Shown here: piece by piece, positions 16,995 through 61,556 of the stretch
Layout of the letters: each line of letters opens with the position of its first letter
Position numbering within the stretch: position 1 is the first letter of the stretch
Source: a virus
Taxonomy: Duplodnaviria > Heunggongvirae > Uroviricota > Caudoviricetes
Reading direction: 5' to 3' (one strand)
Length of the DNA: 64,000 bases
IMG/VR virus record: IMGVR_UViG_3300029705_000054
Span: 1,687 to 65,686 of that record
Program-made: the position numbers and the translations under genes
The notes under the pieces: generated by a model
Told to the model about the DNA's origin: nothing
Databases searched by the model: none
What the model saw: the letters and a program-made list of their open reading frames with translations, nothing else

Positions 16995-17825
16995 ATGACA
17001 AATAATTATTGTATTTATATGCACAAAAATAAGGTTAATGGTAAGGTTTATATTGGATAGACAAATTAGAAACCTGAATATCGTTGGGGAGACAATGGAA
17101 AACGATATGAAAACTGTCCTCATTTTTTTCACGCAATTAATAAATATGGCTGGGACTAGTTTGAGCATATTATTTTAGAAACAAATTTAACTTTAAACTA
17201 GGCTAATGAACGAGAAGCTTATTGGATAAAACATTATAATTCAACTAATAAAGAAAAAGGATATAATATTCAAGCAGGCGGTTTAAATAGAAATGTTTCA
17301 AATGACACTAGACAAAAACTAAGTGAGCATGCTAAAGCTCTTTGGCAAGAAGATTCTCATCGTGAAAAGATGTCACAATTAATGAAAAATAAGTGGTAGG
17401 ATCCGGAGTATATTGAAAAACAAAGAGTTGCTCGGGAAACTAGACACTGGGAAATGTCAGAAGAGGGGAGAAAAAGTATCAGTGAAACTCGTAAAGCCTA
17501 TATTACTAAACATGGAACTCCTACACAAGGAAAAGGACATAGCGAAGAAGCTAAAGAAAAAATTCGACAAGCTAAACTTGGAGAAAAAAATCCAATGTAT
17601 GGAAAAACTACTTCTGATTATCAAAAGCAAAGAGCTAAAGAGTGCCAAAGTAAAAAGATTTAGTGTGTTGAAACTGGAGAAATATTTTCTTCTCGAAAAG
17701 AAGCAGCTGCATGGGCGGGACTCAAAACTTCAACAGGTATCTTAGATTATTTAGCAGGTAGAAAAAAGAGCGCAGGAAAACATCCTATTACAGGAGAAAA
17801 ACTTCATTGGAAAAATATTGATTGA
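16995..17825 (+). CDS. free-standing GIY-YIG homing endonuclease. Reading it requires translating 6 in-frame TAG codons as Gln
   Basis: Readable as NGKVYIG-Q-TN-Q-..GWD-Q-FEHIILE..LN-Q-ANEREAYW..KKI-Q-CVETGEIFSS. Each TAG sits where GIY-YIG families usually have Gln. Confidence 0.6.
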
Positions 17826-17881
17826 TTTTTTATAAAAAATATGATATAATAATTATACAAAAAATAAAGGAGAATTATAAT

Positions 17882-18133
17882 ATGGCAAAAGGACAACAGT
17901 TAAAAAAAGAAATTCAAGCGAAGATTTTAGAGGTGTTTCCTGGAAGTTTTTTATATAACGATGCCAAGGAGATAAGAATATGTGGTATTGAAGATGGTCA
18001 ATCACTACAAGTTAAATGCGTTTTAACGTGTGCCAAAGAAAACGTTACGTGCGGCGCAGATAATGCAATGCCTGGAGATTTTCCCGCGCCAAAGATGACG
18101 GCGCCGACCCCTGAGCGTATAGAACCAGTTTAG
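17882..18133 (+). CDS. hypothetical protein (84 aa)
   Basis: Class-B promoter and RBS aaaggagaattataatATG. Confidence 0.45.
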   Translation: MAKGQQLKKEIQAKILEVFPGSFLYNDAKEIRICGIEDGQSLQVKCVLTCAKENVTCGADNAMPGDFPAPKMTAPTPERIEPV

Positions 18134-18216
18134 GTTTCTGAATGGGAAAAACAAAAGGTTGCAGGTTTGCTAAAAGCTTTAGGTCTGTAATTTATTTTTA
18201 AAAGGAGAGATACTAT

Positions 18217-18510
18217 ATGGCAAAAGCACAATTACTCCGCTATACTGAGTGGGAAAATAATGGAATGTGGTATTGTAATGATACCTCTGATGTAACAAGT
18301 GTTCGCTTTGAATGGTGGGTACCTGCGCGCATGTTAGGTATCTCTCCTGCTGATTATGTTAAACTGATAATCGAAAAGTTTAAACCAGATAGAATTAAAT
18401 ATAATGAAGAACGTAATGTACTCGTCTATTGTTGGAAGAACATAAGCGATTGTCGTAAGTTTAAAAATTGGCTCAATGCTGAAGCGCGAAAGCATAACTT
18501 TATAGTATAA
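18217..18510 (+). CDS. hypothetical protein (97 aa)
   Basis: ORF with RBS aaaggagagatactatATG. Confidence 0.5.
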   Translation: MAKAQLLRYTEWENNGMWYCNDTSDVTSVRFEWWVPARMLGISPADYVKLIIEKFKPDRIKYNEERNVLVYCWKNISDCRKFKNWLNAEARKHNFIV

Positions 18511-18522
18511 GGAGTAAGAAAA

Positions 18523-18840
18523 ATGATTGAAAAGAAAAATTTTATAACGATGGCAGATACTATCAAACAGTATTTTACAGGAGACGTGCCAAAAGCATTT
18601 GATATTCTTGGCATTAACGAAACTGTTATTGATAATATGATGGATGCTTTCACGATGGCGCTAAGTAATGAAGTTGATCCACTTGGATTGGCAAGATTAG
18701 ATGAAAACGTCGTAGATTGTGGAGATTATATTTGTCATTGGCTTTTTAATGAAGGTGAATTTGAGAAACTTTGTCCTACTGCCTCTGATTTGTATGATTA
18801 TATTGTAAACAGATATAGCCAGTTAAAAAAAGAAGATTAA
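18523..18840 (+). CDS. hypothetical protein (105 aa)
   Basis: ORF with an RBS. Confidence 0.5.
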   Translation: MIEKKNFITMADTIKQYFTGDVPKAFDILGINETVIDNMMDAFTMALSNEVDPLGLARLDENVVDCGDYICHWLFNEGEFEKLCPTASDLYDYIVNRYSQLKKED

Positions 18841-19981: not shown

Positions 19982-19998
19982 GACTGAGTCTTACATAC

Positions 19999-21108: not shown

Positions 21109-21112
21109 TATA

Positions 21113-25236: not shown

Positions 25237-25924
25237 ATAAGAAGGAGTAATATGAATAGTAAAGATAAAGGCAATATTGGTGAGGCAGTTGTACTTGCTG
25301 AATTTGTTAAAAATAACATTTAGGTAGCAATCCCTTTTGGAGATAATGCTCGTTATGATTTGATAGCAGAGTTTAATGGAAAATTAAATCGTATTCAAGT
25401 AAAGTATTGTAATCAACAAATTACTGAAAATAATTCTATTGCCTGTCCTTGTGCAAGCAGTACAAACCATACTACCAATAAACATTATAGCACTTACGAG
25501 AATGACATAGATTATTTTTGTTTTTATATCGTAGAATGGAATGAAATTCTTATTCTGCCAATTGAAGAAATTGGTACTAAAAAAGTAATTACTTTTAGAC
25601 AAGATCCTCCAAAAAATAATCAAACTAAAGGGATAAATTTGGTAGAAAATTATCGATTAATTGATTTTCTAAAAAATTTATGATATAATATATATGTAAG
25701 AAATAAAGCGATGCAATATAAACTCCTGACCTGAGTTTCCATCAACAAATTCTCGATTCAAAATTGCCCGAAAGGGGTCGCTAATCGTAATAACATTAAC
25801 TCCGTAGTGAAACGGTAACTTAGGTTGTTCACAAATCTTGTACAAGATTAAAGGAGGAAGGTTGAGTAATCGCCTTTGGAATAGTGCAAATCACTCCTAT
25901 TAGTTAATGTAATTAAGATATTAT

Positions 25925-25996
25925 TGGGGTGTAGCCAAGTGGCAAGGCATCAGACTTTGACTCTGACACCCGCTGGTTCAAATCCAGCCACCCCAG
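25925..25996 (+). tRNA. tRNA-Gln (anticodon TTG) with a U1-A72 pair and G73. No encoded CCA
   Basis: tggggtg..tcaga ctttgac tctga..gctgg ttcaaat ccagc cacccca g. Preceded by a class-B promoter and a ~230-nt structured leader. Confidence 0.6.
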
Positions 25997-26081
25997 GTCG
26001 CACTTAATCAACTACCTCCACGTGGTGTGCGATGGGTTAAGCTAAAAGTTGATAATAAGTATAAAAAGGAGCTATTTAAAT

Positions 26082-26723
26082 ATGGCATACATTTATCAAA
26101 TTACCAATGATATAAATGGTAAAATATACATTGGTAAAACAGAAAAGTCTATAGAAAAACGTTGGAAAGAGCATTGTAGTGATTATCAAAAGGAAAGATG
26201 CAAGGATCGTCCTTTATATCGAGCAATAAACAAATATGGAATTGAACATTTTCATATAGAATTGCTTGAAGAAACAGATAATCCTTCTGAAAGAGAAATC
26301 TTTTGGATTGAGAAAAAACAATCATTTAAAAATGGTTATAATGCTACTTTAGGAGGAGATGGAAAACGTTATTTAGATTATGATTTAATCTATTCCACTT
26401 ATGAAGTTTTGCAAAATGCAACAGAAGTGGCAAAAAAATTAAATATTTCAGTAGATAGCGTATATATTGTTATTCATCAACGAGGAGGCGTATTAAAAAC
26501 TGCTCAAACAATTAATAAAGAGTTGTTTAGCAAAGCTGTAAAAATGTTTGATAAAAAAACTAATGAATATATTCAAAGTTTTTCTTCTTTAACAGATGCT
26601 TCTCAGTATTTAATAGATAATAATTTAACATCTTCAGTGAAAGTAAAAGGTATTTCAACGCACATTCGAGAGTGTGCAAATGGAATTAGAAAATCTGCTT
26701 ATGGTTTCATTTGGAAATGGTAG
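26082..26723 (+). CDS. GIY-YIG homing endonuclease (no internal TAG)
   Basis: MAYIYQITNDINGKIYIGKTEKSIEKRWKEH and a C-terminal NUMOD-like region. Confidence 0.65.
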   Translation: MAYIYQITNDINGKIYIGKTEKSIEKRWKEHCSDYQKERCKDRPLYRAINKYGIEHFHIELLEETDNPSEREIFWIEKKQSFKNGYNATLGGDGKRYLDYDLIYSTYEVLQNATEVAKKLNISVDSVYIVIHQRGGVLKTAQTINKELFSKAVKMFDKKTNEYIQSFSSLTDASQYLIDNNLTSSVKVKGISTHIRECANGIRKSAYGFIWKW

Positions 26724-28656: not shown

Positions 28657-29037
28657 ATGATTACTTATGATAAATTATTAGCAATAGCTAAAGAATATGA
28701 AGCAGATATTCGTGAATTTAGACTTGATGGAGATCTTGGGCGCCTAATGGATTTCTTAGAAGCGGTCATTGGCGCTGATCAGCTAATTTTAGTAGAAGAT
28801 TTTTACAAATCATTAACAGATAATGAAAAATTGGCTTTTCAATCAATTAGAGAAACAATTGGTTTATCTGGTAATATCTCAATTGTAAAGATGATTCAAA
28901 AAACAAGCCTTTCGCGCCCTGTATGGACTTCACTATTGCAAAAAATGGAAAAATTTGGTATTGCGCAGGTCAAAAGTCAAGGTGTAAAAGGAACTTATAT
29001 TGAGATAGCAAAGGAGATAGAAAATGGCAACTTATAA
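28657..29037 (+). CDS. hypothetical protein (126 aa)
   Basis: ORF with an RBS, immediately after the tRNA island. Confidence 0.5.
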   Translation: MITYDKLLAIAKEYEADIREFRLDGDLGRLMDFLEAVIGADQLILVEDFYKSLTDNEKLAFQSIRETIGLSGNISIVKMIQKTSLSRPVWTSLLQKMEKFGIAQVKSQGVKGTYIEIAKEIENGNL

Positions 29038-29056
29038 TCTAAGTACGCGCCTTATT

Positions 29057-29449
29057 ATGAAAAATGATACTCCATAGGCTTGGAATGAAAATAATCCAAT
29101 ATTAATGAAAGGCGAAGTGGGTTGCGCAATTGATTCTGATCAAGGAATCGTCACAGTAAAAATAGGAGATGGTGTACATCAATGGAAGGAGTTAGAAGTG
29201 AGAATGGGTACTAAAGAAGAACAATTACAAACAGCACAGAGTAGTATGAGCAATGCTCTGCAGAAAATAGCAACAGCAGCAAAATCATACGGTGTTTCTT
29301 TATCAGAAATGATGGAGTCTATACGTAATCTTAGTGCAACTGGCGCTAATTGTGAGTTGTTGCTAGAAAATATCAATGAAAGCGAGAAGCTTAAATGCAT
29401 CGATCGCCGCCAATTCAAAACACTTAATTATAAACACGAAGTAGAATAA
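29057..29449 (+). CDS. tail-fiber N-terminal-domain protein (phage fiber motif) with one in-frame TAG
   Basis: MKNDTP-Q-AWNENNPILMKGEVGCAIDSDQGIVTVKIGDGVHQWKELEV. The ORF-track start at 29105 is in the same frame. Confidence 0.45.
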
Positions 29450-46972: not shown

Positions 46973-46997
46973 CAAAACTAAAAAATTTGTATATAAT
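46969..46997 (+). promoter_or_regulatory. sigma-70-type promoter (TTGACA, 17-bp spacer, TATAAT) that drives the suppressor tRNA
   Basis: ttgacaaaactaaaaaatttgtatataat, then a ~110-nt structured leader and the tRNA. Confidence 0.6.
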
Positions 46998-47107: not shown

Positions 47108-47182
47108 TGGGGAGTCGTCGAAAGGTCAAGACCGTGGTCTCTAAAACCACAGACGTAGGTTCGATTCCTACCTCCCCTGCCA
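47108..47182 (+). tRNA. amber suppressor tRNA with anticodon CTA and a tRNA-Gln-like architecture (U1, G73, 3-bp D-stem with large D-loop)
   Basis: tggggag tc gtc gaaaggtcaa gac c gtggt ctctaaa accac agac gtagg ttcgatt cctac ctcccct g cca. Closely parallels the tRNA-Gln(TTG) at 25925. A strong hairpin terminator follows (47190..47218). Confidence 0.7.
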
Positions 47183-47242
47183 GATAGAGAAGCTCCTTTG
47201 AGAGAATCAAAGGAGCTTTACCATTATTAACAAGGAGTAAGT

Positions 47243-49746: not shown

Positions 49747-49761
49747 TAAGGAGAATAAAAA

Positions 49762-52104
49762 ATGGATAATAATAAACAAATAAACATATGTGATGAATTA
49801 TCAAATAACTTTATAGATTTTAGTTATGAAGCCAATTCATGTCGTGCTTTTGCTGACGCAAGAGACGGCTTAAAACCAGGTCAACGCGCTTGTCTTTGGG
49901 AAATGTATCATAAAGGATATCTTTCTTCTAAACCAACAGTAAAAGGCGCAAAAGTAGCTGGCGCAGTATCGGGTAACTGGTGGCCGCACGGAGATGTAGC
50001 TATCTATGAAACTTTTACTCGTATGTCTCAGCCATGGATTAATAATGTTCCAGAAGTAGACTGGAAAGGAAATAATGGTTCTCAAATTATTCCTGACTCA
50101 GCCGCTTCTTCAAGGTATACAGAAACTCGTCTTTCAAAAGCAACTGAAGAGGGTATGTTCCATGCTATTAAAAAGCGAGTAGTAAAAATGATTCCCAACT
50201 ATTCTGAAGACGATGAATGGCCAGAGGTTCTTCCTGCGATTTTCCCTCGCTTAATGGTAAATGGATGTCAAGGAATAGGAAGCACAATAGCAAACGTATG
50301 GTTGCCGCATAACTTAACTGATATAGGAAATGTTATTCTTAACTATATTGAAACTAACACTGTTGATTTTACAGGCTTAGCTCCAGATTTTCCTACGGGA
50401 TGTCAGATAATTAATAAAAACGATTTAGCGCCTATTTATGCAACAGGCAAAGGCAAAGTCACACTTAGGGCAAGAGCAGATATAGTAAAAGACCATATCT
50501 ATTTTAGAGAACTTCCTTATCAGGTGTATGTTGAGCCTCTTATTGAAAAAATTAAAGAGCTTGCATCAAAAGGCGAAATCACTGGCGTAGATGCGGTTTA
50601 TAATAGAAGTAGTAAAAAGGGTATTGAAATAGATGTAGAATGTGGTGAAAATCCCGATGCAGTATTAAAACAGCTGTATTCTAAGACTGATTTACAAAAA
50701 TCATATAGCGCAAACCAATGGGCGCTTGTGGGTAAAACTCCAAGACTTCTTACTCTTAAAGACTATTGTGAGATTTATGTAGACCATAATTTACTTTGTA
50801 TTCAAAATGAAGCACAGTTTGATTTGGAAAAGGCGCAAGATAGACTTCATATCGTTGAAGGACTTCTTCATGCATTGGAAGATATCGATAACATTATCGC
50901 GCTCATTAAGACATCTGCAAGTGCGGCGGCCGCTAAGGATGCGTTAATCGCCACCTATAAGTTCTCTGAAGCACAAGCAAAAGCTATCGTAGATATGAAA
51001 CTTGGTAAGCTCGCTGGACTTGAAAAGGTTGAGCTGAATCAAGAGGCAAACGAACTCCACAAAGAAGTTGAGGAATTAAATACCCTCTTCCTTAACGAAA
51101 CCAAGCAGCGTGAAGTATTGCGCGAACGCCTTACCGCATTCATTAAGAAATATGGTGACTCACGCAGAACTGGTCTTGAGCAGATCGAGCTTCCCAAGGT
51201 AGAGAAGGAAATCGAAACCGTAGTACCTGAAGACTGCGTAGTAATAGCGACACAAAATGGCGATATTAAGAGAGTGCCCGCCGCATCTTTTAAAACGCAA
51301 AAGCGCAACGGCAAAGGCGTAAAGACAACAGATGACGCAATCCTTGACATGATTTCTACCAACACTGTCGATACTTTAATGTTCTTTACTGATAAAGGTA
51401 AAATGTATCGTCTATTGGTAGATAAAGTTCCTACTGGCACTAATGCTTCGAAGGGCGGACGCATCGGCGCCTTGATTAATATAGAAGCAGATGAAAAAGT
51501 AGTAGCTATGACTTCACTATATCGCAAGAGTCAAGCAGAATATGTTATCTTTATTACAAAGCAGGGACTTTTCAAAAAGACAAAGTTAGAAGAATATCTC
51601 CAAACAAAACGAGCAACAGGTATTACCGCAATTAAGTTTAAGGAAGGTGATTCACTTGCTACTGTTACTTTTGCTAATGAAGAAGATTTTATCATTCTTA
51701 CAAAACAAGGAATGAGTATTCGCTTTGAAACGAAAGAGATTGCTCCTATTGGGCGCGTAACCTCTGGTGTAAAGAGCATTAAATTAAACGAGGGTGATGA
51801 GGTTTTAACTGGTTTGCCTATTAAGCATAAGACTGATACTCTTGCAACATTTAGCGCGAATGGTATGGGGCGCAAGACCTTGCTTGAAGAATTCCCTGTC
51901 CAGGGTAGAGGTGGCAAGGGCCTAAAGATAGGAAGTGGAGACCTGGCTGGCGCAGCGTTGATTAGCGATGAAGATAATCTTCTCATAGTCGGTTCGCCAA
52001 ATAGCATCTGCATATCAGCCACTGAAATTCCGCTCTTAGCGCGCACGGCGCAAGGTAATATAATGATTAAAAATAGTACCATAAAAGGAGTAATTAAAAT
52101 ATGA
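49762..52104 (+). CDS. type II DNA topoisomerase DNA-cleavage subunit (GyrA/ParC/T4 gp52-like)
   Basis: N-terminal DGLKPGQRACLWEMY signature of GyrA/ParC, 780 aa. Confidence 0.7.
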   Translation: MDNNKQINICDELSNNFIDFSYEANSCRAFADARDGLKPGQRACLWEMYHKGYLSSKPTVKGAKVAGAVSGNWWPHGDVAIYETFTRMSQPWINNVPEVDWKGNNGSQIIPDSAASSRYTETRLSKATEEGMFHAIKKRVVKMIPNYSEDDEWPEVLPAIFPRLMVNGCQGIGSTIANVWLPHNLTDIGNVILNYIETNTVDFTGLAPDFPTGCQIINKNDLAPIYATGKGKVTLRARADIVKDHIYFRELPYQVYVEPLIEKIKELASKGEITGVDAVYNRSSKKGIEIDVECGENPDAVLKQLYSKTDLQKSYSANQWALVGKTPRLLTLKDYCEIYVDHNLLCIQNEAQFDLEKAQDRLHIVEGLLHALEDIDNIIALIKTSASAAAAKDALIATYKFSEAQAKAIVDMKLGKLAGLEKVELNQEANELHKEVEELNTLFLNETKQREVLRERLTAFIKKYGDSRRTGLEQIELPKVEKEIETVVPEDCVVIATQNGDIKRVPAASFKTQKRNGKGVKTTDDAILDMISTNTVDTLMFFTDKGKMYRLLVDKVPTGTNASKGGRIGALINIEADEKVVAMTSLYRKSQAEYVIFITKQGLFKKTKLEEYLQTKRATGITAIKFKEGDSLATVTFANEEDFIILTKQGMSIRFETKEIAPIGRVTSGVKSIKLNEGDEVLTGLPIKHKTDTLATFSANGMGRKTLLEEFPVQGRGGKGLKIGSGDLAGAALISDEDNLLIVGSPNSICISATEIPLLARTAQGNIMIKNSTIKGVIKI

Positions 52105-52949
52105 TAACTGAAAATCAACAATATATGGAAACTTTGGGAGCGGAATTTTCCGCTCCCGATATCCGAGATTATCGTATTGATAGTTCTAGTCTACAATCAG
52201 AATTTCCAGCTGAATTTGAATTACCAATGCCACCTGTTAAGAATCAAGGATCAGTTGGCTCTTGCGTAGCTCATTCTATTGCTTTAGTAGCAGAATATTT
52301 TAATCAACAACAATATGGCATCGCAAATGAAATAAGCGTTGGCTATATTTATGGCAATAGAGTGCCTCCATTAAATAAAACTGCTGGCATGATTACGCGT
52401 TTTGCAATTTCCAATTTTTGCGCAGATGGCGCTCCTACATTCAATGATTTTCCATTACATTGTGAAGTCCCAGATATTATTACCGCAGTAGAAAAGGCTA
52501 AAGACTCATTGGACGCACTCGCGCGCCAATTCCGTTTTACCTCTTATATTAAAGTATCAAAAGAAAAAGAAATAAAAACAGCATTAATGCAAGGCTATCC
52601 TGTTATTATTGCAGTGGACTGGTATAATGATATGAAAGTCAAAGATGGAGTTATAACCTCTAATTTCACCCAAAAGTCTGGCGGCCATGCGATGGTGCTT
52701 TATGGTTGGGATGAAAACGGTTGGAAAATTCAAAATTCTTGGAGTGTATTTTGGGGTAATCAAGGTCGTGCCGTTTGGCCCTATGATTTTAAGTTACGTG
52801 AAGCTTATGCTATTGTTGATACTGAGACCACTCCATTAAATATTAAAAAGCCGTTTAAAACCCAAAATAAGTTTTTACGCACTTTAGTTAAAATTGCCAA
52901 TAAGATATATAGTGTCTTTTATAGCTTATGGTATAGAATAAAACATTAA
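52101..52949 (+). CDS. papain-like (C1 family) cysteine peptidase
   Basis: Catalytic-Cys motif NQGSVGSCVAHS, His in GGHAMVLYGW, Asn in NSWSVFWG. ATGA overlap with the topoisomerase stop. Confidence 0.55.
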   Translation: MITENQQYMETLGAEFSAPDIRDYRIDSSSLQSEFPAEFELPMPPVKNQGSVGSCVAHSIALVAEYFNQQQYGIANEISVGYIYGNRVPPLNKTAGMITRFAISNFCADGAPTFNDFPLHCEVPDIITAVEKAKDSLDALARQFRFTSYIKVSKEKEIKTALMQGYPVIIAVDWYNDMKVKDGVITSNFTQKSGGHAMVLYGWDENGWKIQNSWSVFWGNQGRAVWPYDFKLREAYAIVDTETTPLNIKKPFKTQNKFLRTLVKIANKIYSVFYSLWYRIKH

Positions 52950-53035
52950 GAGGGTTATATTAACCCTCTTATTTTGATTTTTTATTAAAAATATGTTATA
53001 ATTTATTATAAGAATGAAAAAGAGGAGAAAGAGAA

Positions 53036-55048
53036 ATGGCTAATTATACAAGAATGAAAGAGCTTATTGAGTTTCTAAATCATCATCAAGAGCTTTATGA
53101 TAAAAGTACCCCTGCAATTAGCGATAAAGAGTGGGATGATGCCTATTTTGAATTAAAGAATCTTGAAGAAGTTGCTGGAGAAAGCCTACCTGGATCTCCA
53201 ACTCAAAAGATAAGATATGAAGTTGTATCGGAGCTTCGCAAAGTATCTCATGATGAAGACTTTCCTATGCTTTCTCTTGATAAGACAAAAGAGATTGCTG
53301 ATATCGAAGATAAATTTGGAAATAAGCAATGGATTGCAATGGCTAAATGTGATGGTCTATCATGTCGTCTTATCTATCAAGGCGGGCGCCTAATTCAAGC
53401 GGCTACTCGAGGCAATGGCGAGGTGGGAGAGGATATCACACACAACGCTAAAGTTGTAAAAAATATACCCAAGTGGATTCCGCATGATGGCAGACTTGTA
53501 GTCGATGGAGAGATAGTCTGTTTTTCGCAAGACTTTGCACCTTTTGCAGAGGAGTATGCTAACTCAAGAAACTTTGCGGCGGGTAGTATTAGATTGCTTG
53601 ACAGCGCTGAGTCTGCAAAGCGAAATTTGAGTTTTATTGCGTGGGACTGTATTTATGACGATAAAAGTGAAAGTAACTTTTTATCAGCTCAACTCGAAGA
53701 TTTAAGTCTTTATGGGTTTGAGGTTGTCTCCTGGAGCGTTTCAGGAAGTCAATCTATAACAGAAGCAATAGATAGTTTAAAATGGGATAGTGAAAGAATA
53801 GGCTTACCTATTGATGGAGTGGTTTTTAAATTAAATAATAAAAGCGAATACTATGCCACTGGGATTACCGCCCATCATCCAAAAGCGGCAATTGCGTTTA
53901 AATTTTATGATGAAGAATATGAAACCGAGCTATTAGATATTGAATGGAGTATGGGTAAAACGGGAGTGCTTAGTCCAGTTGCTATTTATCGAGAAATAGA
54001 AATGGAAAATACAATGTGCTCAAGAGCAAGCCTTCATAATATCAATACTTTAGTCGAGATTCTTGGTGAATATCCCTATGTAGGACAAAAAATAAAAACA
54101 TATAAGGCATTAATGATTAATCCTCAAGTAAGTTGGGGGGAAAAAGCGGAAGAAATATTTGGCGCGGATCCGGGTTATTATCTTAACGATCCAGAAATTA
54201 AATTCTTATTTCCACCTAAGAAATGTCCAATCTGCGGCGCGCCAACAGAAATCAGAGAGAGCGATAGTGGAACTATTGAGCTGTATTGTTCAAGTGATAC
54301 TTGCGAAGGAAAGCTCATAAACAAGCTAGACCATTTCTGTGGTAAGAAAGGTCTCGACATTAAAGGCTTGTCTAAAGCTACCTTAGAAAAACTTATTGAC
54401 TGGGGCTGGATTACAAGAGCAAAGGATCTATTCTATCTATACCAATGCGAGTCTGAGTGGATTAATAAGCCAGGATTCGGCGCAAAGAGCGTAAAGAAGA
54501 TTTTGGATGCTATTGAAGAGGCGCGTCACACGACACTTGAGAAGTATTTAAGCGCGATTAGTATTCCGCTTATAGGGAAGACTTATGCACGTCAGTTGGC
54601 GCAGATATTTGAAACTTATCAAAACTTTAGAGTATCTGTAACTCCCGATCCTATCACTGGTATTAAACCTTTTGACTTTACACAGATTGATGGATTTGGT
54701 CCAGCAATGCATGAGGCAATCATGAGTTTTAATTATTATGAGGCAGATAGAATGGTTGATATGAATATCATTGACTTTGTCGAAGAAGAAGGCGCACTGG
54801 AAAATTCTGGAAATGCGCTTGAGGGTAAGATTTTTTGTGTCACGGGTCGAGTCCATATCTGGAAGAACCGAGACGAACTTTCAGCGGCAGTGACCGCCGC
54901 AGGTGGCAAGGTAACATCATCAGTCTCTTCAAAAACCGATTATCTCGTAAACAATGATGTTACAAGCACATCATCAAAAAATCTTAAAGCAAAAGAGCTC
55001 GGTATTCCAATTATCACTGAAGAACAGTTACAGGAGTTAATGAAATGA
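53036..55048 (+). CDS. ligA: NAD+-dependent DNA ligase (LigA)
   Basis: Adenylation motif KCDGLSCRL (KxDG), Zn-finger Cys cluster CPICG..C..C, C-terminal BRCT-like region GKIFCVTGRV. Confidence 0.75.
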   Translation: MANYTRMKELIEFLNHHQELYDKSTPAISDKEWDDAYFELKNLEEVAGESLPGSPTQKIRYEVVSELRKVSHDEDFPMLSLDKTKEIADIEDKFGNKQWIAMAKCDGLSCRLIYQGGRLIQAATRGNGEVGEDITHNAKVVKNIPKWIPHDGRLVVDGEIVCFSQDFAPFAEEYANSRNFAAGSIRLLDSAESAKRNLSFIAWDCIYDDKSESNFLSAQLEDLSLYGFEVVSWSVSGSQSITEAIDSLKWDSERIGLPIDGVVFKLNNKSEYYATGITAHHPKAAIAFKFYDEEYETELLDIEWSMGKTGVLSPVAIYREIEMENTMCSRASLHNINTLVEILGEYPYVGQKIKTYKALMINPQVSWGEKAEEIFGADPGYYLNDPEIKFLFPPKKCPICGAPTEIRESDSGTIELYCSSDTCEGKLINKLDHFCGKKGLDIKGLSKATLEKLIDWGWITRAKDLFYLYQCESEWINKPGFGAKSVKKILDAIEEARHTTLEKYLSAISIPLIGKTYARQLAQIFETYQNFRVSVTPDPITGIKPFDFTQIDGFGPAMHEAIMSFNYYEADRMVDMNIIDFVEEEGALENSGNALEGKIFCVTGRVHIWKNRDELSAAVTAAGGKVTSSVSSKTDYLVNNDVTSTSSKNLKAKELGIPIITEEQLQELMK

Positions 55049-55375: not shown

Positions 55376-55627
55376 ATGGCTTTAAAAGACAATTCACTCA
55401 CAATTTTTAACTATGTAAGAGAGCATGATGGAGAGGACTTTACTGCATAGGATATTTCAGAAGCAACTGGTATCGGTGTAAAGTCTGTAAATGGATGCCT
55501 CACAGCAATGGCAAGACACCACGATCTTATTTATCGTGAAGAGGTTGCTGTAACTGGCGGTAAGGTAAAATATATCCGTCTAACTGAAACGGGAAAATGT
55601 TTTGATCCTGAGGCAACGGAAGACTAA
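55376..55627 (+). CDS. winged-helix DNA-binding protein with one in-frame TAG
   Basis: MALKDNSLTIFNYVREHDGEDFTA-Q-DISEATGIGVKSVNGCLTAMARHH. Similar fold pattern to 59390..59773. Confidence 0.45.
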
Positions 55628-55678: not shown

Positions 55679-56662
55679 ATGATAGTATTATGCGTAATAT
55701 CAATTCTTCTTGGTGTGAGCGGTCTTGCTTATGGAGTATGGGTTAAAGCCACATCTGTAAAAGCTAATCGCTATACAGCAGAAGAAAATTAGAAACTAGA
55801 AGAACTCAATTAGTCATTACAAGCAACTCGCAAAAGCTTAGAAGCACAAAATAACTTATTGATAAAATCTAACAATGAAATTTCTCAAAAATATGAAGAG
55901 AACTGTAAAAAAACAAAAAATTCTTACGACGAATTAAATCAATTAACTCAATAGAAATTGTTGTTAATAAATGAAATTCAAAATAAGCAAATTGAAAAAG
56001 CAGGAATTGAGGCGCAAATTGCTGCTTTCAGCAGCTCTGTAGAGACAATGTCAGGTGACTTAAAGGCAGCTGCGCTCGCCTCCTTTGAACAATATTGTGA
56101 GACTCTTGATTATGAATATCAAAAACGCGAACAAGAGTTCGATATTGAAGTGGACACTCTTGATCAATTATATTTTGACAGACTTCAAGAACTTGATGCA
56201 AGAGAAAAAGGATTAATTGAAGAGCGACGTCAAGATATTGACACTCTTGTGCAATTATTTTATGATAAGCAATAGTCAATGTCTAAAGAATTACAAGAAG
56301 AAGAGGCGGCAATGCGCGCCGACCTAGACTCAATCCGCAAAGAGCTAGAAAAAATTCGTGCAACCAAGGCCGCCACAATGGAAGCACAACTTCGTGAAGA
56401 AGAAATTAAAAATCAAGCAACATTTTATACTCTTCAACTTAATGAGGCAGATAAGCGAGACGTGGCATATCTTCAAAGTATTGAATATAATCTACGCGAA
56501 GCAAGACCTTTGCGTATGCTTATATGGACTACTTTCTATAGAGATAAAGTCAATGACCTTGCGGCGCGCGTAGGTGCGTTGGGCGCCAGTGGAATATATA
56601 AGATAACACACATTGACTCTGGTATATCTTATATCGGACAAGCGGTCAATGTTGGCCGATGA
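55679..56662 (+). CDS. membrane-anchored coiled-coil protein whose C-terminus carries the first half of a GIY-YIG (T5orf172-like) motif. 4 in-frame TAG codons. Interrupted downstream by an endonuclease insertion
   Basis: TM helix MIVLCVISILLGVSGLAYGVWV, long coiled coil, then ..SGIYKITHIDSGISYIGQAVNVGR followed by TGA. Confidence 0.4.
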
Positions 56663-56860
56663 AAAACTTTACCTAGTAGCTGCTAGGGGTCGCTAACTTA
56701 TAGTGGCTAACGAGGAAAATATTTTTTAATAAAATACAATCTCGTGGGAAATTTTGATTAATCCATCTTCCATAAAAATAATATATATATGAACAACTGA
56801 TGAATATAACATTATAGGAGGCATAAAATGCAAAAATTATTTTTATCTAAGATGACACCA

Positions 56861-57775
56861 AATGACATTATTAGCGGAATTTATAAAATTAATTACCCAA
56901 ACGGAAAAGCTTACATTGGATAGGCTCAAAATATTCGAGCTAGACTTATGGAGCATAATTCTTATAGTCAAGCTGGACATGGTTCAAGAGAACTTCTATT
57001 GTGTGAGCAAAAAATGAAAGAATACAATATTATTATTGATGAGTTTGAATTACTTGAAACAGTTTCTGACTTATCGTTATTAGATGATAAAGAAAGATAT
57101 TGGATTTCCTTTTATAAAACCTATATTAAAGATGGACACGGATACAATAAAACCCGAGGAGGAGACGCTTCGGGGAAACGAGGGACTGAAAATCCTAATG
57201 CAGCTTTAAATGAAAATCAACTTAAAGAAATAATTGATTTGTTAATTAATCATACAGAGTTTTCTTTAACAGAGATAGGTAATAAATATGGAGTAGGACA
57301 AGGTACTATATTAAATATTTCAACAGGTAGAACCTATGTTAATCCAAACTTAGTTTACCCATTAAGAAAAAATAATCATGACTCAGCGTGTAAGACAGAA
57401 GTTTTAGATTATTTTTCCTCCGAAGAAGAGCTAGTTAATTTAAAAGAAGATTTATTGTATCGTTGGGATTTACCAATTCAAGGTGGTATAGATATTAAAT
57501 ATAATATTCCAATCAGGGTATTAAGAGACATTAATAATGGAAGAAAATTTGCAGAAATAGGGAAATATAGTTATCCTATTAGAGCAAAAAACATTCGCAA
57601 TAATCATAATTTAACTTTAGAGGATGTTTAGAATATTTTAGATCTGTTACGTAATACTAATACTTCTATGGATAATATTGGTGCACAATATAACATAGGG
57701 CGTTCAACTATAAGTAATATTAATTTAGGAAAAACTTATATTCTTAAAGATTATGATTATCCTGCTAGAAAATAA
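56861..57775 (+). CDS. GIY-YIG homing endonuclease (inserted element). One in-frame TAG. There is an apparent +1 frameshift relative to an RBS-proximal ATG at 56827, in a TTTT run
   Basis: ..YKINYPNGKAYIG-Q-AQNIRARLMEHN. Removing one T from ggaatttt (56876..56881) would give MQKLFLSKMTPNDIISGIYKINYPNGKAYIGQ, a canonical GIY start served by RBS taggagg. Confidence 0.5.
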
Positions 57776-57933: not shown

Positions 57934-58161
57934 ATGCAACATTAAAGAGCGCTGGGTAACGCATGTCAAATGCAGCTTAGGTATCGATACCCCTGTAACA
58001 AGTCAACTTTATGCATTTACAAAAGAAAAGGGTATTGATAACTTTACTTTTGAAATACTTGAAAAATGTAATATCAATGAATTAAATGAAAAGGAGAAGT
58101 TTTATATTGACCTCTATCAGACATATGATTTTGGACTGAATAAAACTCGCGGAAATAGTTA
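57934..58161 (+). pseudogene. 3' fragment of the interrupted GIY-YIG domain (..IKERWVTH..YAF..NFTFEILE..) with an internal frameshift near 58085
   Basis: Frame 1 reads CNIKERWVTHVKCSLGIDTPVTSQLYAFTKEKGIDNFTFEILEKCNINEIK*. The rest (KEKFYIDLYQTYDFGLNKTRGNS*) is in frame 2. Confidence 0.4.
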
Positions 58162-59307: not shown

Positions 59308-59389
59308 TTTATTGATTTTTTATACAAATTTAATTATAATTATTATATAAAATGAATAAAATAAATAGAAATGGAGATAAATTAATTAA

Positions 59390-59773
59390 ATGACAAACAA
59401 AGAAATTTTTATCAACACAGTAGAACAACTTATTGCGCATAGCAAAGATATGATTCCTACTGAAGCTATTGAATACCTTAATCAGCTTAAAGCAACACCT
59501 GAAAAGGAGAAGGCTCCTTTTACTGAAAATGGCGCAAAGGTTCTTATTTGGATGCAGGAGAATTATGAGTCTTATAACAATATTCTCAAGGCAAAGGAAA
59601 TCGGTGATGGACTTTTCTGTTCTTCGCGCACAGTGTCTGGTGCTATGAGAAAGCTTATTACTGACGGTTATGTAAGCAAGACAGAAGGAACTCCTACTTG
59701 TTATTCGCTTACAGAACTTGGGATGAGCGTAACGGTAGTAGTTCCAGAAAAGAAAACCAAGGATGAAGAATAA
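59390..59773 (+). CDS. winged-helix DNA-binding protein (127 aa)
   Basis: ..GDGLFCSSRTVSGAMRKLITDGYVSKTEGTPTCYSLTELG. Confidence 0.45.
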   Translation: MTNKEIFINTVEQLIAHSKDMIPTEAIEYLNQLKATPEKEKAPFTENGAKVLIWMQENYESYNNILKAKEIGDGLFCSSRTVSGAMRKLITDGYVSKTEGTPTCYSLTELGMSVTVVVPEKKTKDEE

Positions 59774-60007
59774 TGAGAGATTTTATAATTTTAGCAATTT
59801 CTTATATACCTTTTCCTGTTTTAGAGGAGTATCTTAAAACAAGAGGAATAACTTGCTATAATGAAGATGGAAGCTCTCGTATGACTTATGAAGTAGTTAA
59901 TGATATAATGCAGCTTCTACTTGACTAAATAAAAAATTTTTGTTATAATAAAGATATTGGACAAAAATATTAAATAAGTAAAATAATTAATAAACAAGGA
60001 GAAAGAA

Positions 60008-60973
60008 ATGAAGTACACAAAGAATTCAATTACAATTCAAGGAAGAGTTTACAGTTTTGGAGAAGCAAATGGAAGAAATATGCTTGAAGTAAAGACTGTA
60101 AAGAATGAAAAGTCTGAGAACTTCGGTAAGGAGTTTATTGCAGGAACTATCCAGGTTGCAGTAGATGAAGCAGGTCTTAATGTAATTCCTGTTCACTACA
60201 CTTTTGTAACCCCCACCACAAAGAATGGCGGCACCAACAATACCTTTACCGCTCTTAAGGCACTTATCGATGGCGGTAAGACTTGGGTAAAGGACGGCAA
60301 GGATGCTGCACCTATGGTTAAACTCGAGCCTTCTTTTGCGCTCAATGATTTCTATATCAATGAGAATGGTGAAGATAAACTTGTCTCTCAGGTAATGCAC
60401 GAGGGTGGTTTTGCAACAATCGTAAACACTCTTCCTGAGAACGAAGCAGAGAGAACTTATTTCCGCTGTGATATGGTTATCACAAATGTAACTCATGTAG
60501 ATGAAGATAAAGAGAAAAACATTGATGAACATGTTGCTCTTCGCGGTGCAGTATTTAATTTCCGTAAAGAACTTCTTCCTCTTACCTTTACAGTTAAGAA
60601 TCCTAACGGTATGAATTACTTTGAAGAACTTGGCGTGTCTGGTAGCGAGCCTGTTTACACTTGGGTTGAAGGTATTATTAACTGCAATACTGTTAAGAAC
60701 GAGGTCAAGGAAGAGACTGCATTTGGCGGCGAGTCTGTAAGAACCTTTGAGCGCAAGACTAAAGAATGGCTTGTTGTAAGAGCTTCGCAGAATCCTTATG
60801 ACTTTGGTGAAGAGGGTATTCTTACTGGAGAAGAGCTTACAAAGGCTATGCAGGATAGACAGGTTAAGCTTGCCGAGGAAAAGAAGAGAAGTGAAGAGTA
60901 TAAGGCACAGAGAAATAATCCTGTAGCAGCGCCCGCCGCTCCTCAGGCAAAAGCTGGTGGCTTTAACTTCTGA
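60008..60973 (+). CDS. possible single-stranded DNA-binding protein (OB-fold), tentative
   Basis: Highly expressed-looking gene (strong RBS). ITIQGRVYSFGE pattern and a C-terminal Ala/Pro-rich flexible tail. Architecture only. Confidence 0.3.
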   Translation: MKYTKNSITIQGRVYSFGEANGRNMLEVKTVKNEKSENFGKEFIAGTIQVAVDEAGLNVIPVHYTFVTPTTKNGGTNNTFTALKALIDGGKTWVKDGKDAAPMVKLEPSFALNDFYINENGEDKLVSQVMHEGGFATIVNTLPENEAERTYFRCDMVITNVTHVDEDKEKNIDEHVALRGAVFNFRKELLPLTFTVKNPNGMNYFEELGVSGSEPVYTWVEGIINCNTVKNEVKEETAFGGESVRTFERKTKEWLVVRASQNPYDFGEEGILTGEELTKAMQDRQVKLAEEKKRSEEYKAQRNNPVAAPAAPQAKAGGFNF

Positions 60974-60992
60974 TAAAAAGAGGTAAGTGAAA

Positions 60993-61556
60993 ATGGCAGA
61001 TTTTAATTTACTTGATATTTAGCCTCATTAGGTTTCAAGAGATATGCGCGGTTATTGCGTCTTCTTCTATGGAGACGCAAAGACCGGTAAAACTACTACC
61101 GCGACTAAATTCCCTAATCATCTTTTGGCGGCTTTTGAAAAAGGATATAATGCAATTCCCGGCGCCATGGCACAACCTATTAATAGTTGGTCTGAGTTTA
61201 AAAAATTCTTGCGCCAGTTAAAGAATGAACAGGTTAAAGCTAGATTCGAAACTATTATCCTTGATACAGCTGATATAGCCTATGACTATTGTGAGAAATA
61301 TATTTGCGCCAATGCAGTTCGTCCAGATGGCTCTATAGGCGTCGATAGCATCGGTGACATTGGTTACGGAAAGGGCTTCAAAATGGCAGCGCAAGAGTTT
61401 GATAGCGCGCTTCGTTCAATCCTTCAATTAGGATACGGCTTAGTAATTATTTCTCACGCGCAAGACAAAACCTTTAAGGATCAAAATGGCAATGAGTATA
61501 ATCAGATTGTTCCTACTCTTGATAATAAACCTCGTAATATTGTAAACCGTATGGCT
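60993..61556 (+). CDS. RecA-fold AAA_24-like ATPase, putative exon 1 (2 in-frame TAG codons at the N-terminus). It may be spliced to 62533..63021
   Basis: MADFNLLDI-Q-PH-Q-VSRDMRGYCVFFYGDAKTGKTT (Walker A), IILDTAD (Walker B), VIISHAQ. Strong RBS aaaaagaggtaagtgaaaATG. Confidence 0.5.

What the first reader, a model, noticed from the sequence alone, without database searches (positions are those of the whole stretch)
16995..61100. Amber (TAG) codons are in frame in a defined subset of genes and are consistent with TAG being read as glutamine
More than a dozen genes are only intact if TAG is translated. They are the GIY-YIG endonucleases (16995, 10945c, 56861), the HNH endonuclease (37892), three tail-fiber genes (29057, 33451, 33768), several HTH/winged-helix proteins (9421c, 11337c, 12209c, 55376), a membrane protein (13068c), the TM-coiled-coil gene (55679) and the ATPase N-terminus (60993). 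In conserved positions the TAG falls where Gln is expected. Examples are YIG-Q-T in GIY-YIG, ARI-Q-HK in the fiber N-terminus and LT-Q-R in HNH. Early genes still use TAG as a genuine stop. For instance 1829..2086 ends in TAG immediately before the next gene's RBS, and 26082..26723 also ends in TAG. Most core genes lack TAG altogether, including the topoisomerase, the ligase, the MVP homolog and the sigma factor. This pattern matches the temporally regulated stop-codon recoding described for some large gut phages, here with a compact set of identifiable target genes.
Basis: partly seen in the sequence, partly recalled or inferred. Interest (0 to 1): 0.85.

Follow-up and report, generated by a model that had tools for sequence, protein, structure and literature searches.

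The report
Phage reads amber codon as glutamine
This stretch of a large gut or rumen phage has 39 in-frame TAG "stop" codons in 18 genes and carries its own amber-reading tRNA, so TAG is most likely read as glutamine, which is a known phage trick and not a new one.

Summary
Eighteen genes carry 39 in-frame TAG codons. Treating TAG as sense raises a gene-model score from 3957 to 4323 and coding density from 71.5% to 77.2%; doing the same with TGA or TAA lowers the score. Pfam domains run straight across the TAGs.

It sits behind a perfect TTGACA-17-TATAAT promoter.

Glutamine is the best-supported meaning. In orthologs at least 60% identical, TAG swaps with CAA/CAG at 11 of 30 differing sites (P about 4e-10). 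A likelihood test over 15 sites ranks Q first. The nearly invariant Q of the GIY-YIG "YIGQ" motif is a TAG here.

Thirteen long core genes (5743 codons) have no TAG. Neither does the 8-kb early region, which holds 12 perfect host-type promoters.

Corrections:
- The HNH TAG aligns with Trp/Phe, not Gln.
- Gene 55679 is exon 1 of a gene split by a mobile insertion.
- Regulation over time is plausible but not shown.

This is a new member of a known kind (code-15 phages).

Side lead: about half of the recoded relatives appear to read TAG as glutamate, and two of them carry Glu-like suppressor tRNAs.

The parts
47108..47182 (+). Amber suppressor tRNA, anticodon CUA, with CCA encoded. It has a U1:U72 mismatch, G2-C71, G3-C70, G73, U8-C9, a short GUC/GAC D stem and a 4-nt variable loop.
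   Evidence: ARAGORN. Rfam tRNA match of 58.9 bits with the 1:72 pair flagged as non-standard. Sequence read.
46969..46997 (+). Perfect TTGACA-17-TATAAT promoter-like site about 110 nt upstream of the suppressor tRNA. A second site matching 10 of 12 positions lies at 47049-47077.
   Evidence: The window has 14 perfect sites against 0 expected from shuffles.
47190..47218 (+). Hairpin with an 11-bp stem directly after the tRNA (AAGCTCCTTTG-AGAGAAT-CAAAGGAGCTT). It is a possible end of the tRNA transcription unit.
   Evidence: Read directly from the sequence. The terminator scan did not list it because the T tract is weak.
16995..17825 (+). GIY-YIG/NUMOD3 homing endonuclease with 6 in-frame TAG (codons 22, 25, 55, 69, 135, 223).
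   Evidence: One Pfam GIY-YIG match covers residues 4-87 across four TAGs. Homologs have Q at columns 22 and 25 in 114 and 109 of 120 sequences. The L001 ortholog has CAA at 3 of the 6 sites.
9421..13547 (-). Minus-strand block in which 7 of 9 called genes contain TAG: 9421-10128 (6), 10945-11340 GIY-YIG (2), 11337-12020 HTH (1), 12046-12222 (1), 12209-12406 (2), 12436-12576 (3), 13068-13547 membrane protein (2).
   Evidence: Homologs of the 9421 gene are full length. Codon pairs with two homologs were checked at the DNA level. A promoter-like site matching 11 of 12 positions lies at 13611-13583.
17882..18190 (+). Gene of 102 aa with TAG at codon 84.
   Evidence: Homologs continue past the TAG (GAG twice, GCG, CAG). 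The coding score is positive after the TAG.
25252..25683 (+). PD-(D/E)XK (PDDEXK_5) endonuclease inside the tRNA array, with TAG at codon 24.
   Evidence: The Pfam match covers residues 1-136 across the TAG, E = 4.9e-33.
29024..29449 (+). Protein with a tail-fibre N-terminal domain, TAG at codon 18.
   Evidence: PHROG tail-fibre families match from residue 1. Coding score.
33451..33771 (+). Tail-fibre N-terminal (Mtd_N) and collagen-like protein, TAG at codon 10.
   Evidence: Pfam Mtd_N covers residues 10-54. The three homologs with the motif have Q, E and F at the TAG column.
33768..36605 (+). BspA-type LRR tail-fibre protein of 945 aa with TAG at codons 459 and 718. The two TAGs sit at the same position in two internal repeats.
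   Evidence: Translation, Pfam LRR_5, and positive coding scores in all three segments.
37892..38518 (+). HNH_3 endonuclease with TAG at codon 68, at a position that is Trp or Phe in homologs.
   Evidence: Pfam match. Aligned codons are TGG in 7 loci and TTT in 3. The L005 ortholog, 85% identical, has TGG.
55376..55627 (+). Small HTH protein with TAG at codon 25, behind a perfect promoter at 55283-55311.
55679..56662 (+). Exon 1 of a gene for a transmembrane, coiled-coil and GIY-YIG protein, with 4 TAG (codons 38, 45, 92, 199). Three of the TAGs are shared with the uninterrupted orthologs in L050 and L051.
56828..57775 (+). Free-standing GIY-YIG homing endonuclease inside the 1.29-kb insertion that splits the previous gene. 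It has 2 TAG (codons 32, 268), and codon 32 is the Q of 'YIGQ'.
   Evidence: Pfam match. Codon 32 aligns with CAA in 4 loci, TTA in 3 and TAG in 2.
57938..58159 (+). Exon 2 of the split gene, encoding the rest of the GIY-YIG domain.
   Evidence: tblastn of the L050 ortholog gives 96% identity. Translation.
60993..61559 (+). AAA_24 ATPase with TAG at codons 10 and 13.
   Evidence: Pfam match. Homologs in 68 loci align across both codons. The L051 ortholog, 94.7% identical, has CAA at codon 10.
258..7442 (+). Early-looking block of small genes preceded by 12 perfect TTGACA-17-(TG)TATAAT promoters. None of the called genes has an in-frame TAG.
1829..2086 (+). Early-block gene that ends in TAG. 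The next gene's RBS and ATG follow 43 nt later, and the frame beyond the TAG has no coding signal.
30765..33245 (+). MVP-shoulder-domain protein of 826 aa with no TAG. It has no TAG in any of the 10 relatives whose gene calls were inspected, including heavily recoded ones.
47836..55048 (+). GyrB-like, GyrA-like, papain-like peptidase and NAD-dependent DNA ligase genes, all TAG-free. They start directly downstream of the suppressor tRNA.
25924..25997 (+). Ordinary phage tRNA-Gln (UUG) in the tRNA array. It is only 61% identical to the suppressor.

Best explanation
The window comes from a large tailed phage of a Firmicutes-type host. The phage uses UAG as a sense codon in a subset of its genes.

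The proposed mechanism is as follows. The phage encodes its own tRNA with anticodon CUA (47108-47182). A host aminoacyl-tRNA synthetase charges this tRNA, most likely with glutamine. The charged tRNA then competes with host release factor 1 at UAG. As a result, 18 genes with 39 in-frame TAGs yield full-length protein only when the suppressor is present. These genes include five homing-type nucleases (three GIY-YIG, one HNH, one PD-(D/E)XK), three tail-fibre genes, a minus-strand block of small regulators, a split GIY-YIG-domain gene and an ATPase.

Genes that must work in an uninfected-type translation system contain no TAG. These are the early block behind 12 host-type promoters, topoisomerase, ligase, the sigma factor and RNA ligase.

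Shown here: the in-frame TAGs, their sense-codon behaviour, the tRNA, and the equivalence of TAG with Gln codons in orthologs. Inferred: which enzyme charges the tRNA, and that the arrangement delays or gates translation of the TAG genes.
For: The case for recoding:
- The gene-model score and coding density rise only when TAG is treated as sense.
- Coding potential continues in frame across the TAGs.
- Pfam domains span the TAGs.
- Public gene calls already hold full-length versions of these proteins (P0001 at 98% identity, P0121 and P0134).
- TAG terminates at most 1-2 of about 95 genes, against 65 ending in TAA and 30 in TGA.
- The base after TAG is distributed as after CAA/CAG (p = 0.90).
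- TAG positions are inherited. Three of the 4 in gene 55679 are shared with orthologs that are 88-89% identical. Two repeats in gene 33768 carry TAG at the same place.

The suppressor:
- ARAGORN and Rfam both call a tRNA with anticodon CUA.
- A perfect promoter consensus lies upstream of it.
- Close relatives carry a tRNA(CUA) at the syntenic site.

The case for glutamine:
- The GIY-YIG columns at codons 22 and 25 are Q in 114 and 109 of 120 homologs. At the DNA level codon 22 is CAA/CAG in 12 of 19 aligned loci whose codon is not TAG.
- A standard-code homolog (P0084 in L002) translates normally.
- A BLOSUM likelihood over 15 sites gives Q 4.38, K 1.63 and E 0.83. In controls the method recovered the true residue in at least 196 of 200 resamplings.
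- In orthologs at least 60% identical, TAG is exchanged with CAA/CAG at 11 of 30 differing sites, against 2.9% expected (P = 4e-10). Glu codons account for 4 of 30, which is not significant.
- The tRNA has an unpaired 1:72, G2-C71, G3-C70, G73 and U35. From established knowledge of E. coli GlnRS, these are its identity elements.

Both the pattern and the model match Borges et al. and Babkin et al. 2023.
Against: - No protein-level data exist.
- The suppressor is not a typical tRNA-Gln. It is 61% identical to the phage tRNA-Gln. Its acceptor stem is identical to a relative's tRNA-Trp, to which it is 77% identical overall. Its D arm and 4-nt variable loop resemble tRNA-Glu and the Glu-type suppressors of sister genomes. 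The tRNA alone therefore does not fix the amino acid.
- Several TAG sites align with residues other than Q: N at GIY-YIG codon 55, E at codon 69, W/F in the HNH gene, A in gene 55376, and K at ATPase codon 13.
- The split between TAG genes and TAG-free genes is not cleanly early versus late. The tail tube gene has no TAG, while an ATPase and genes behind host-type promoters do.
- No release factor or synthetase gene was found among the window proteins scanned against Pfam and PHROGs. Not every open reading frame was scanned.
- The host is unknown, and only bin labels of metagenome-assembled genomes are available.
Confidence: 0.85

Rival explanations
1. UAG is read as glutamate, or ambiguously as Gln and Glu, in this phage. 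Its suppressor has a tRNA-Glu-like core, and a sister lineage of the family appears to use TAG for Glu.
For: - The window tRNA shares U8-C9, a GUC/GAC D stem and a 4-nt variable loop with the phage tRNA-Glu and with the tRNA(CUA) of two 'E-type' genomes.
- Some window TAG sites align mostly with E: GIY-YIG codon 69 (E in 87 of 120 homologs), codons 148 and 159 of gene 9421c (GAA), and codon 84 of gene 17882 (GAG twice).
- In E-type relatives, conserved columns at TAG sites are E 40 against Q 1.
Against: - The likelihood ranks Q well above E for the window.
- Near-identical orthologs exchange TAG with CAA/CAG 11 times and with GAA 4 times, and never with GAA at 70% identity or above.
- The 'YIGQ' column is never E in 120 homologs.
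- The acceptor end (1:72 mismatch, G73, G2-C71, G3-C70) is Gln-type, not the G1:U72/A73 of the phage tRNA-Glu.
- The closest relatives have clearly Gln-type suppressors at the same locus.
Confidence: 0.08
2. UAG is read as tryptophan by a suppressor derived from tRNA-Trp.
For: - The acceptor stem and discriminator are identical to the tRNA-Trp(CCA) of relative L001, and the anticodon arm differs mainly by CCA to CUA. Overall identity is 77%, the best match among 133 phage tRNAs.
- The HNH TAG sits where homologs have TGG.
Against: - W is not among the top candidates in the likelihood test.
- Only 1 of 30 ortholog exchanges involves TGG.
- From established knowledge, C35 is a major identity element for bacterial TrpRS, and the E. 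coli Trp-derived amber suppressor su+7 is charged mainly with Gln.
Confidence: 0.02
3. The TAG-containing genes are decaying pseudogenes (mobile endonucleases and accessory genes) that have accumulated nonsense mutations. On this view there is no recoding and the tRNA(CUA) is incidental.
For: - Homing endonuclease genes often decay.
- The HNH TAG looks like a plain TGG-to-TAG mutation.
- Gene 55679 is interrupted by an insertion.
Against: - Only TAG interrupts these frames, never TAA or TGA, in a window that is 63% A+T.
- Coding signal and domains continue after every TAG.
- The TAGs also occur in conserved non-mobile genes such as the ATPase and tail fibres, and are shared between relatives.
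- TAG is almost absent as a terminator.
- A matching suppressor tRNA is present.
- 58 of 136 related loci show the same gain in score when TAG is treated as sense.
Confidence: 0.03

Closest known systems
Genetic code 15 (TAG to Gln) phages of gut microbiomes: crAss-like, Lak, Garnet, Amethyst and others (Ivanova 2014; Borges et al., bioRxiv 10.1101/2021.08.26.457843; Peters et al. 2022, PMC9523058)
   Same: - In-frame TAG occurs in a subset of genes, while replication genes stay in the standard code.
- The phage encodes a tRNA(CUA).
- The host synthetase is presumed to charge it.
- The proposed role is to gate translation.
- A recoded intron-borne endonuclease has also been described, for TGA in Agate phages.
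   Different: - This is a different phage lineage. There was no nucleotide match in 50,697 phage records.
- Recoding is light. TAG makes up about 8% of putative Gln codons.
- TAG genes here are mostly homing nucleases, tail fibres and small regulators. No lysis cassette could be identified in the window.
- The suppressor is not a plain tRNA-Gln derivative.
Phassvirus group (phAss-1, BK046881, BK025033; Babkin et al. 2023, PMC10607447)
   Same: - These are siphophages of about 135 kb from the gut, with large tRNA arrays, TAG in about 28% of ORFs and 2-3 tRNA-Sup(CTA) genes.
- TAG is assigned to Gln from alignments.
- They have the same distant relatives (Enterococcus phage EF1 appears in both comparisons).
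   Different: - The similarity is only remote. The tail tube protein is 40% identical over 34% of its length, and the MVP-like protein has no hit in Phass-1.
- Only one suppressor was seen in this 64-kb window.
E. coli amber suppressors supE (tRNA-Gln CUA) and su+7 (tRNA-Trp CUA, charged mainly with Gln). This comparison rests on established knowledge and was not tested here.
   Same: - The anticodon is CUA and the discriminator is G73, with a weak or absent 1:72 pair.
- The window tRNA looks like a tRNA-Trp acceptor and anticodon arm with C35 changed to U, as in su+7.
   Different: - The D arm and variable loop are tRNA-Glu-like.
- It is encoded by a phage.
- It serves designed sense codons and does not rescue mutations.

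Membership tests
Amber-recoded (code 15-type) phage | In-frame TAG codons in genes whose homologs are uninterrupted | tested here: met
   39 TAG in 18 genes. Pfam domains and homolog alignments span them.
Amber-recoded (code 15-type) phage | Coding density or score rises with TAG as sense but not with the other stop codons as sense | tested here: met
   3957 to 4323 and 0.715 to 0.772 for TAG. TGA gives 3886 and TAA gives 3774.
Amber-recoded (code 15-type) phage | TAG positions correspond to Gln in homologs | tested here: met
   Q ranks first in the likelihood test. 11 of 30 ortholog exchanges are with CAA/CAG. The YIGQ columns are Q. Exceptions exist (HNH W/F, others).
Amber-recoded (code 15-type) phage | Phage-encoded suppressor tRNA with anticodon CUA | tested here: met
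   47108-47182.
Amber-recoded (code 15-type) phage | TAG depleted as a terminator | tested here: met
   1-2 plausible TAG terminators among about 95 genes. Some non-recoded relatives end about half of their genes in TAG.
Amber-recoded (code 15-type) phage | Recoded codons concentrated in late (structural or lysis) genes, with early and replication genes in the standard code | tested here: inconclusive
   The early block, topoisomerase, ligase and sigma factor are TAG-free, and the tail fibres are recoded. However, the tail tube and MVP-like genes are TAG-free and an ATPase is recoded. No lysis genes were recognised in the window.
Amber-recoded (code 15-type) phage | Host uses the standard code | not testable with these tools
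   Only bin labels of metagenome-assembled genomes are available (Eubacteriales, Bacilli, Erysipelotrichaceae, Clostridium), plus distant Firmicutes-phage relatives.
Amber-recoded (code 15-type) phage | Gln detected at TAG positions in peptides | not testable with these tools
   This needs proteomics, as in Peters et al. 2022.
tRNA-Gln-derived suppressor (supE type) | Body of a tRNA-Gln (D arm GCCAAGCGG.AAGGC and a 5-nt variable loop, as in the phage tRNA-Gln) | tested here: not met
   The window tRNA has a GUCG-AAAGGUCA-AGAC D arm and a 4-nt variable loop, and is 61% identical to the phage tRNA-Gln. The suppressors of relatives L004, L139 and L038 do meet this feature.
tRNA-Gln-derived suppressor (supE type) | GlnRS-type acceptor identity set: weak or unpaired 1:72, G2-C71, G3-C70, G73, U35 | tested here: met
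   Rfam alignment. That these elements define GlnRS substrates is established knowledge for E. coli and was not tested for the unknown host.
Phassvirus (Babkin 2023) | Nucleotide or genome-level similarity to phAss-1 | tested here: not met
   No megablast hit for 7.2 kb of core genes. There is only a partial match of 40% identity in the tail tube protein.

The most novel reading that the evidence does not exclude
The phage family that contains this window has given UAG two different meanings: glutamine in the window's lineage and glutamate in a sister lineage. Each meaning comes with a matching type of suppressor tRNA.

The window's own suppressor is a mosaic. Its core resembles the Glu-type suppressors and its acceptor end is Gln/Trp-type. 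It may therefore mark a switch of meaning between Glu and Gln, or it may decode UAG ambiguously.

I put the family-level Glu/Gln split alone at about 0.65. The added claim that the window tRNA is a link or is ambiguous is much less certain.
Probability: 0.3. Interest if true: 0.8.

Novelty: new member of a known kind. Interest (0 to 1): 0.4.

Why it matters
For this window the practical point concerns annotation. With the standard code, about 18 genes are called as fragments. With TAG read as Gln they become intact homing nucleases, tail fibres, regulators and an ATPase.

Biologically, the window adds a lightly recoded member from a large and little-described phage family of about 130-195 kb. 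In this member the recoded set is small and easy to name, and the suppressor is its own promoter-driven unit. That makes it a convenient case for testing whether amber recoding gates translation.

The wider interest lies in the side lead. If relatives really read TAG as Glu, that would be an amber reassignment not reported for phages in the papers I could read. It would also give a natural series for studying how a codon changes meaning.

Tried and rejected
- A megablast of the core genes against 50,697 phage records found nothing.
- The search for related loci with gene 14312-15175 found no relatives.
- I tested for a 5' bias of TAG within genes. It is weak: 17 of 44 fall in the first fifth, p = 0.04-0.08, and some of that reflects start-codon choice. 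I do not rely on it.
- I tested for a special base after TAG. There is none.
- An Rfam search of the 56.4-58.7 kb insertion found no intron family, so its nature is unproven.
- The RNA-ligase family alignment gave nothing useful for TAG sites.
- An exact search for the E-type suppressor sequence found only its own contig.
- The 'TAG at codon 3' of gene 43387 was rejected. The kinase domain and its homologs start at the downstream Met.
- I considered pyrrolysine because ARAGORN labels the tRNA 'Pyl'. I rejected it. The label only reflects the anticodon, the tRNA has an ordinary cloverleaf, none of the window proteins scanned against Pfam and PHROGs matched pyrrolysine machinery (not every ORF was scanned), and the alignments point to Gln.

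Full report
**What the window is.** The 64-kb window is 37% G+C and almost all of its genes lie on the + strand, apart from a block at about 8.5-13.5 kb. It encodes:
- a tRNA array at 20-28.5 kb;
- a sigma-70-family factor, GyrB-like and GyrA-like proteins, an NAD-dependent ligase, an RNA ligase, a papain-like peptidase and an 826-aa protein with a major-vault-protein shoulder domain;
- a tail tube protein distantly related to those of Enterococcus phage EF1, Phass-1 and large Bacillus siphophages.

There is no close match in 50,697 GenBank phage records. IMG/VR, however, holds 46 relatives of the MVP-like gene and at least 80 relatives of the ligase, mostly on contigs of 120-195 kb. Related contigs are binned with Eubacteriales, Bacilli, Erysipelotrichaceae and Clostridium MAGs. 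This is therefore a large Firmicutes-type phage from gut or rumen-like samples.

- Codon-usage log-odds were trained on TAG-free long genes. They stay positive in the same frame on both sides of nearly every TAG. They turn negative after the TAG that ends 1829-2086.
- A simple dynamic-programming gene model scores 3957 (density 0.715) under the standard code and 4323 (0.772) with TAG as sense. With TGA as sense it scores 3886 and with TAA as sense 3774.
- Single Pfam matches run across the TAGs in three GIY-YIG genes, the HNH_3 gene, the Mtd_N tail-fibre gene and a PDDEXK_5 nuclease.
- In the AAA_24 ATPase the Pfam match begins after the two TAGs. Even so, homologs in 68 loci align through both codons, and an ortholog that is 94.7% identical has CAA at codon 10.
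- The base that follows TAG has the same distribution as after CAA/CAG (p = 0.90).
- Under the TAG-sense model, genes end in TAA (65) or TGA (30).
- The distribution is uneven. Thirteen long core genes (5743 codons, 175 Gln codons) have no TAG, although the overall rate would predict about 15.

ARAGORN and Rfam find a tRNA with anticodon CUA at 47108-47182. It lies apart from the main tRNA array and directly upstream of the topoisomerase genes. A perfect TTGACA-17-TATAAT site lies at 46969-46997, and a hairpin with an 11-bp stem follows the tRNA. The window has 14 perfect matches to that promoter pattern, where shuffles give none. Twelve of them, all with an extended -10 TG, lie at 258-7442 in front of small TAG-free genes. 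One precedes the suppressor. One precedes the TAG-containing gene 55376.

**Which amino acid?** Four lines of evidence favour glutamine.
1. In the GIY-YIG gene 16995, TAG codons 22 and 25 fall in columns that are Q in 114 and 109 of 120 homologs. At the DNA level codon 22 is CAA or CAG in 12 of 19 aligned loci whose codon is not TAG, and never a Glu codon. One homolog sits in a standard-code SPbeta-like contig. Codon 32 of gene 56828 is the same 'YIGQ' position.
2. In the syntenic relative L001, the ortholog has CAA at three of the six TAG sites.
3. A BLOSUM-based likelihood over the 15 window TAG sites with at least 3 aligned homologs gives Q 4.38, K 1.63 and E 0.83. With true Q, E, K, N, A or W codons from the same genes, the method recovered the right residue in at least 196 of 200 resamplings.
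4. In orthologs at least 60% identical, sites where one genome has TAG and the other does not pair TAG with Q codons 11 times out of 30 (CAA 10, CAG 1). E, K and A each appear 4 times. With Gln at 2.9% of codons, that gives P = 4e-10.

Not every site is Q-like. GIY-YIG codon 55 is N in homologs and codon 69 is mostly E. ATPase codon 13 is mostly K and gene 55376 codon 25 is mostly A. The HNH TAG aligns with TGG or TTT, including an ortholog that is 85% identical. That TAG looks like a TGG-to-TAG change that suppression tolerates. The 'ARI-Q-HK' example is equivocal, because the three homologs with the motif have Q, E and F.

**The tRNA itself.** Its acceptor end has an unpaired U1:U72, G2-C71, G3-C70 and G73. 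Together with U35, this is the identity set of E. coli GlnRS (established knowledge, not tested for this host). The body, however, is not that of a tRNA-Gln.
- It is 61% identical to the phage tRNA-Gln(UUG).
- It is 77% identical to the tRNA-Trp(CCA) of relative L001, with an identical acceptor stem.
- It has the U8-C9, short GUC/GAC D stem and 4-nt variable loop of tRNA-Glu.

The closest relatives carry a tRNA(CUA) at the same locus, but with a typical tRNA-Gln body (L004, L139, L038/L050). All of them also have a 1:72 mismatch and G73. From classical work I recall that amber suppressors derived from tRNA-Trp (su+7) and tRNA-Glu are charged largely by GlnRS in E. coli. The mosaic is therefore compatible with Gln, but the tRNA alone does not prove it. 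I put Gln at about 0.85.

**How it most likely works.**
- Shown: the codons, their sense-like behaviour, the tRNA, and the equivalence of TAG and Gln codons.
- Inferred: the tRNA is transcribed by host RNA polymerase from its own consensus promoter. A host enzyme charges it, and it competes with RF1. Proteins from TAG genes are then made at full length only once the suppressor has accumulated.

The layout fits the published model (Borges et al.). The early block and the replication genes are TAG-free, one early gene uses TAG as its terminator (1829-2086), and the tail fibres and homing nucleases are recoded. That paper also reports a recoded intron endonuclease, for TGA.

The fit is only partial, though. 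The tail tube and MVP-like genes have no TAG. An ATPase does. Gene 55376 and the minus-strand block sit behind host-type promoters. A LAGLIDADG endonuclease (61609-62244) has no TAG. Timing cannot be tested from sequence.

**Corrections to the gene picture.** Gene 55679-56662 is exon 1 of a gene that is uninterrupted in L050 and L051 (400-404 aa, with a C-terminal GIY-YIG domain). Exon 2 lies at 57938-58159. The 1.29-kb insertion between them carries the GIY-YIG endonuclease 56828-57775, and no Rfam intron model matches it. The TAG near 43393 is upstream of the real start of an AAA_33 kinase gene.

**Comparison with what is known.** The defining features of an amber-recoded (code 15-type) phage are met wherever they could be tested (see the membership table). 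Such phages are well described. The public protein collection already holds full-length translations of these genes. The window is not a Phassvirus. I rate it a new member of a known kind.

**Side lead.** Recoding is common in this family. By the same score test, 58 of 136 loci look TAG-sense. In heavily recoded relatives the MVP-like and gyrase genes still have no TAG, while giant tail genes carry up to 69.

Unexpectedly, the inferred meaning splits in two. Among loci with at least 8 usable sites, 25 score best as Glu and 20 as Gln. After removing duplicate sites:
- the 'E-type' loci have 280 sites, with conserved columns E 40 and Q 1;
- the 'Q-type' loci have 240 sites, with conserved columns Q 31 and E 8.

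At 50% identity or above, TAG in the first E-type set pairs with GAA 42 and GAG 11 times, against CAA 10 and CAG 3. Two E-type genomes that I could walk into carry a tRNA(CUA) with a tRNA-Glu-like core. One of them has the G1:U72 and A73 of the phage tRNA-Glu. Borges et al. state that only TAG to Gln and TGA to Trp were seen in phages, and a 2026 survey assumes Gln.

The grouping is partly circular, because the groups were defined by the same data. Only two suppressors were examined, and there is no proteomic evidence. I report this as a lead, not a result.

Noticed in passing
Related loci L014-L125, e.g. L085/L027/L147 (IMGVR_UViG_3300037400_003528) and L025/L149 (IMGVR_UViG_3300021399_000006): About half of the TAG-recoded relatives seem to read TAG as glutamate. 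Conserved columns at their TAG sites are E 40 against Q 1, compared with Q 31 against E 8 in the other group. TAG pairs mostly with GAA. Two such genomes carry a tRNA(CUA) with a tRNA-Glu-like core (L147 4920-4992 minus strand; L149 18408-18480). The phage recoding papers I read do not report this.
   Followed up: partly
window 55679-58159: A gene for a transmembrane, coiled-coil and GIY-YIG protein is split after '...ISYIGQA' by a 1.29-kb insertion that carries a free-standing GIY-YIG endonuclease (56828-57775). Exon 2 is at 57938-58159. Orthologs in L050 and L051 are uninterrupted. No Rfam intron family matches the insertion.
   Followed up: partly
window 60993-63021: The AAA_24 ATPase gene stops at profile position 160 of 195. 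It is followed by a LAGLIDADG endonuclease ORF (61609-62244, no TAG) and an Rfam group I intron (62177-62532, 78 bits), then by an ORF at 62530-63021. This is probably a second intron-split gene.
   Followed up: partly
window 258-7442: Twelve perfect TTGACA-17-TATAAT sites, all with an extended -10 TG and most beginning TTGACAAA, sit in front of small genes. Shuffles give none. This looks like an early region read by the host polymerase.
   Followed up: yes
window 25084-25234 and 23362-23461: Rfam finds tRNAs that ARAGORN misses. One has an 81-nt insert in the anticodon loop, and the insert itself contains a T-arm-like stretch (GTTAGTTCGAATCTAAC). The other has a 39-nt insert. tRNAs nested in tRNA introns are reported for large phages.
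   Followed up: no
window 6423-6494 and 22980-23070: ARAGORN calls two tRNAs with four-base anticodon readings (tcgt, tgga). Both also score as tRNA in Rfam. Their identity was not resolved.
   Followed up: no
window 47108-47182 compared with L004 20653-20728, L139 20714-20789 and L038 21163-21238: The syntenic suppressor locus holds tRNAs that differ markedly in sequence across close relatives. Those of the relatives have a Gln-type body, while the window's is a Trp/Glu-like mosaic. All of them have a mismatched 1:72 pair and G73.
   Followed up: partly
window 30765-33245 and its 46 relatives: An 826-aa protein with major-vault-protein shoulder and repeat domains is conserved across the family and carries no TAG in any of the 10 relatives whose gene calls were inspected. 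In GenBank phages it matches only three huge-phage records (LR756500, LR756501, LR756503). Its function is unknown.
   Followed up: partly
L013, L016, L017; L081, L054, L119, L049: Some relatives end about half of their genes in TAG although they are only about 31% G+C, so TAG is a true stop there and is favoured. A few others gain score when TGA is treated as sense, which hints at a different recoding.
   Followed up: no
window 33768-36605 and 36689-37789: The BspA-type LRR tail-fibre protein has two long internal repeats that each carry TAG at the same position. The next gene has a weak Hint (intein-like) domain match.
   Followed up: no
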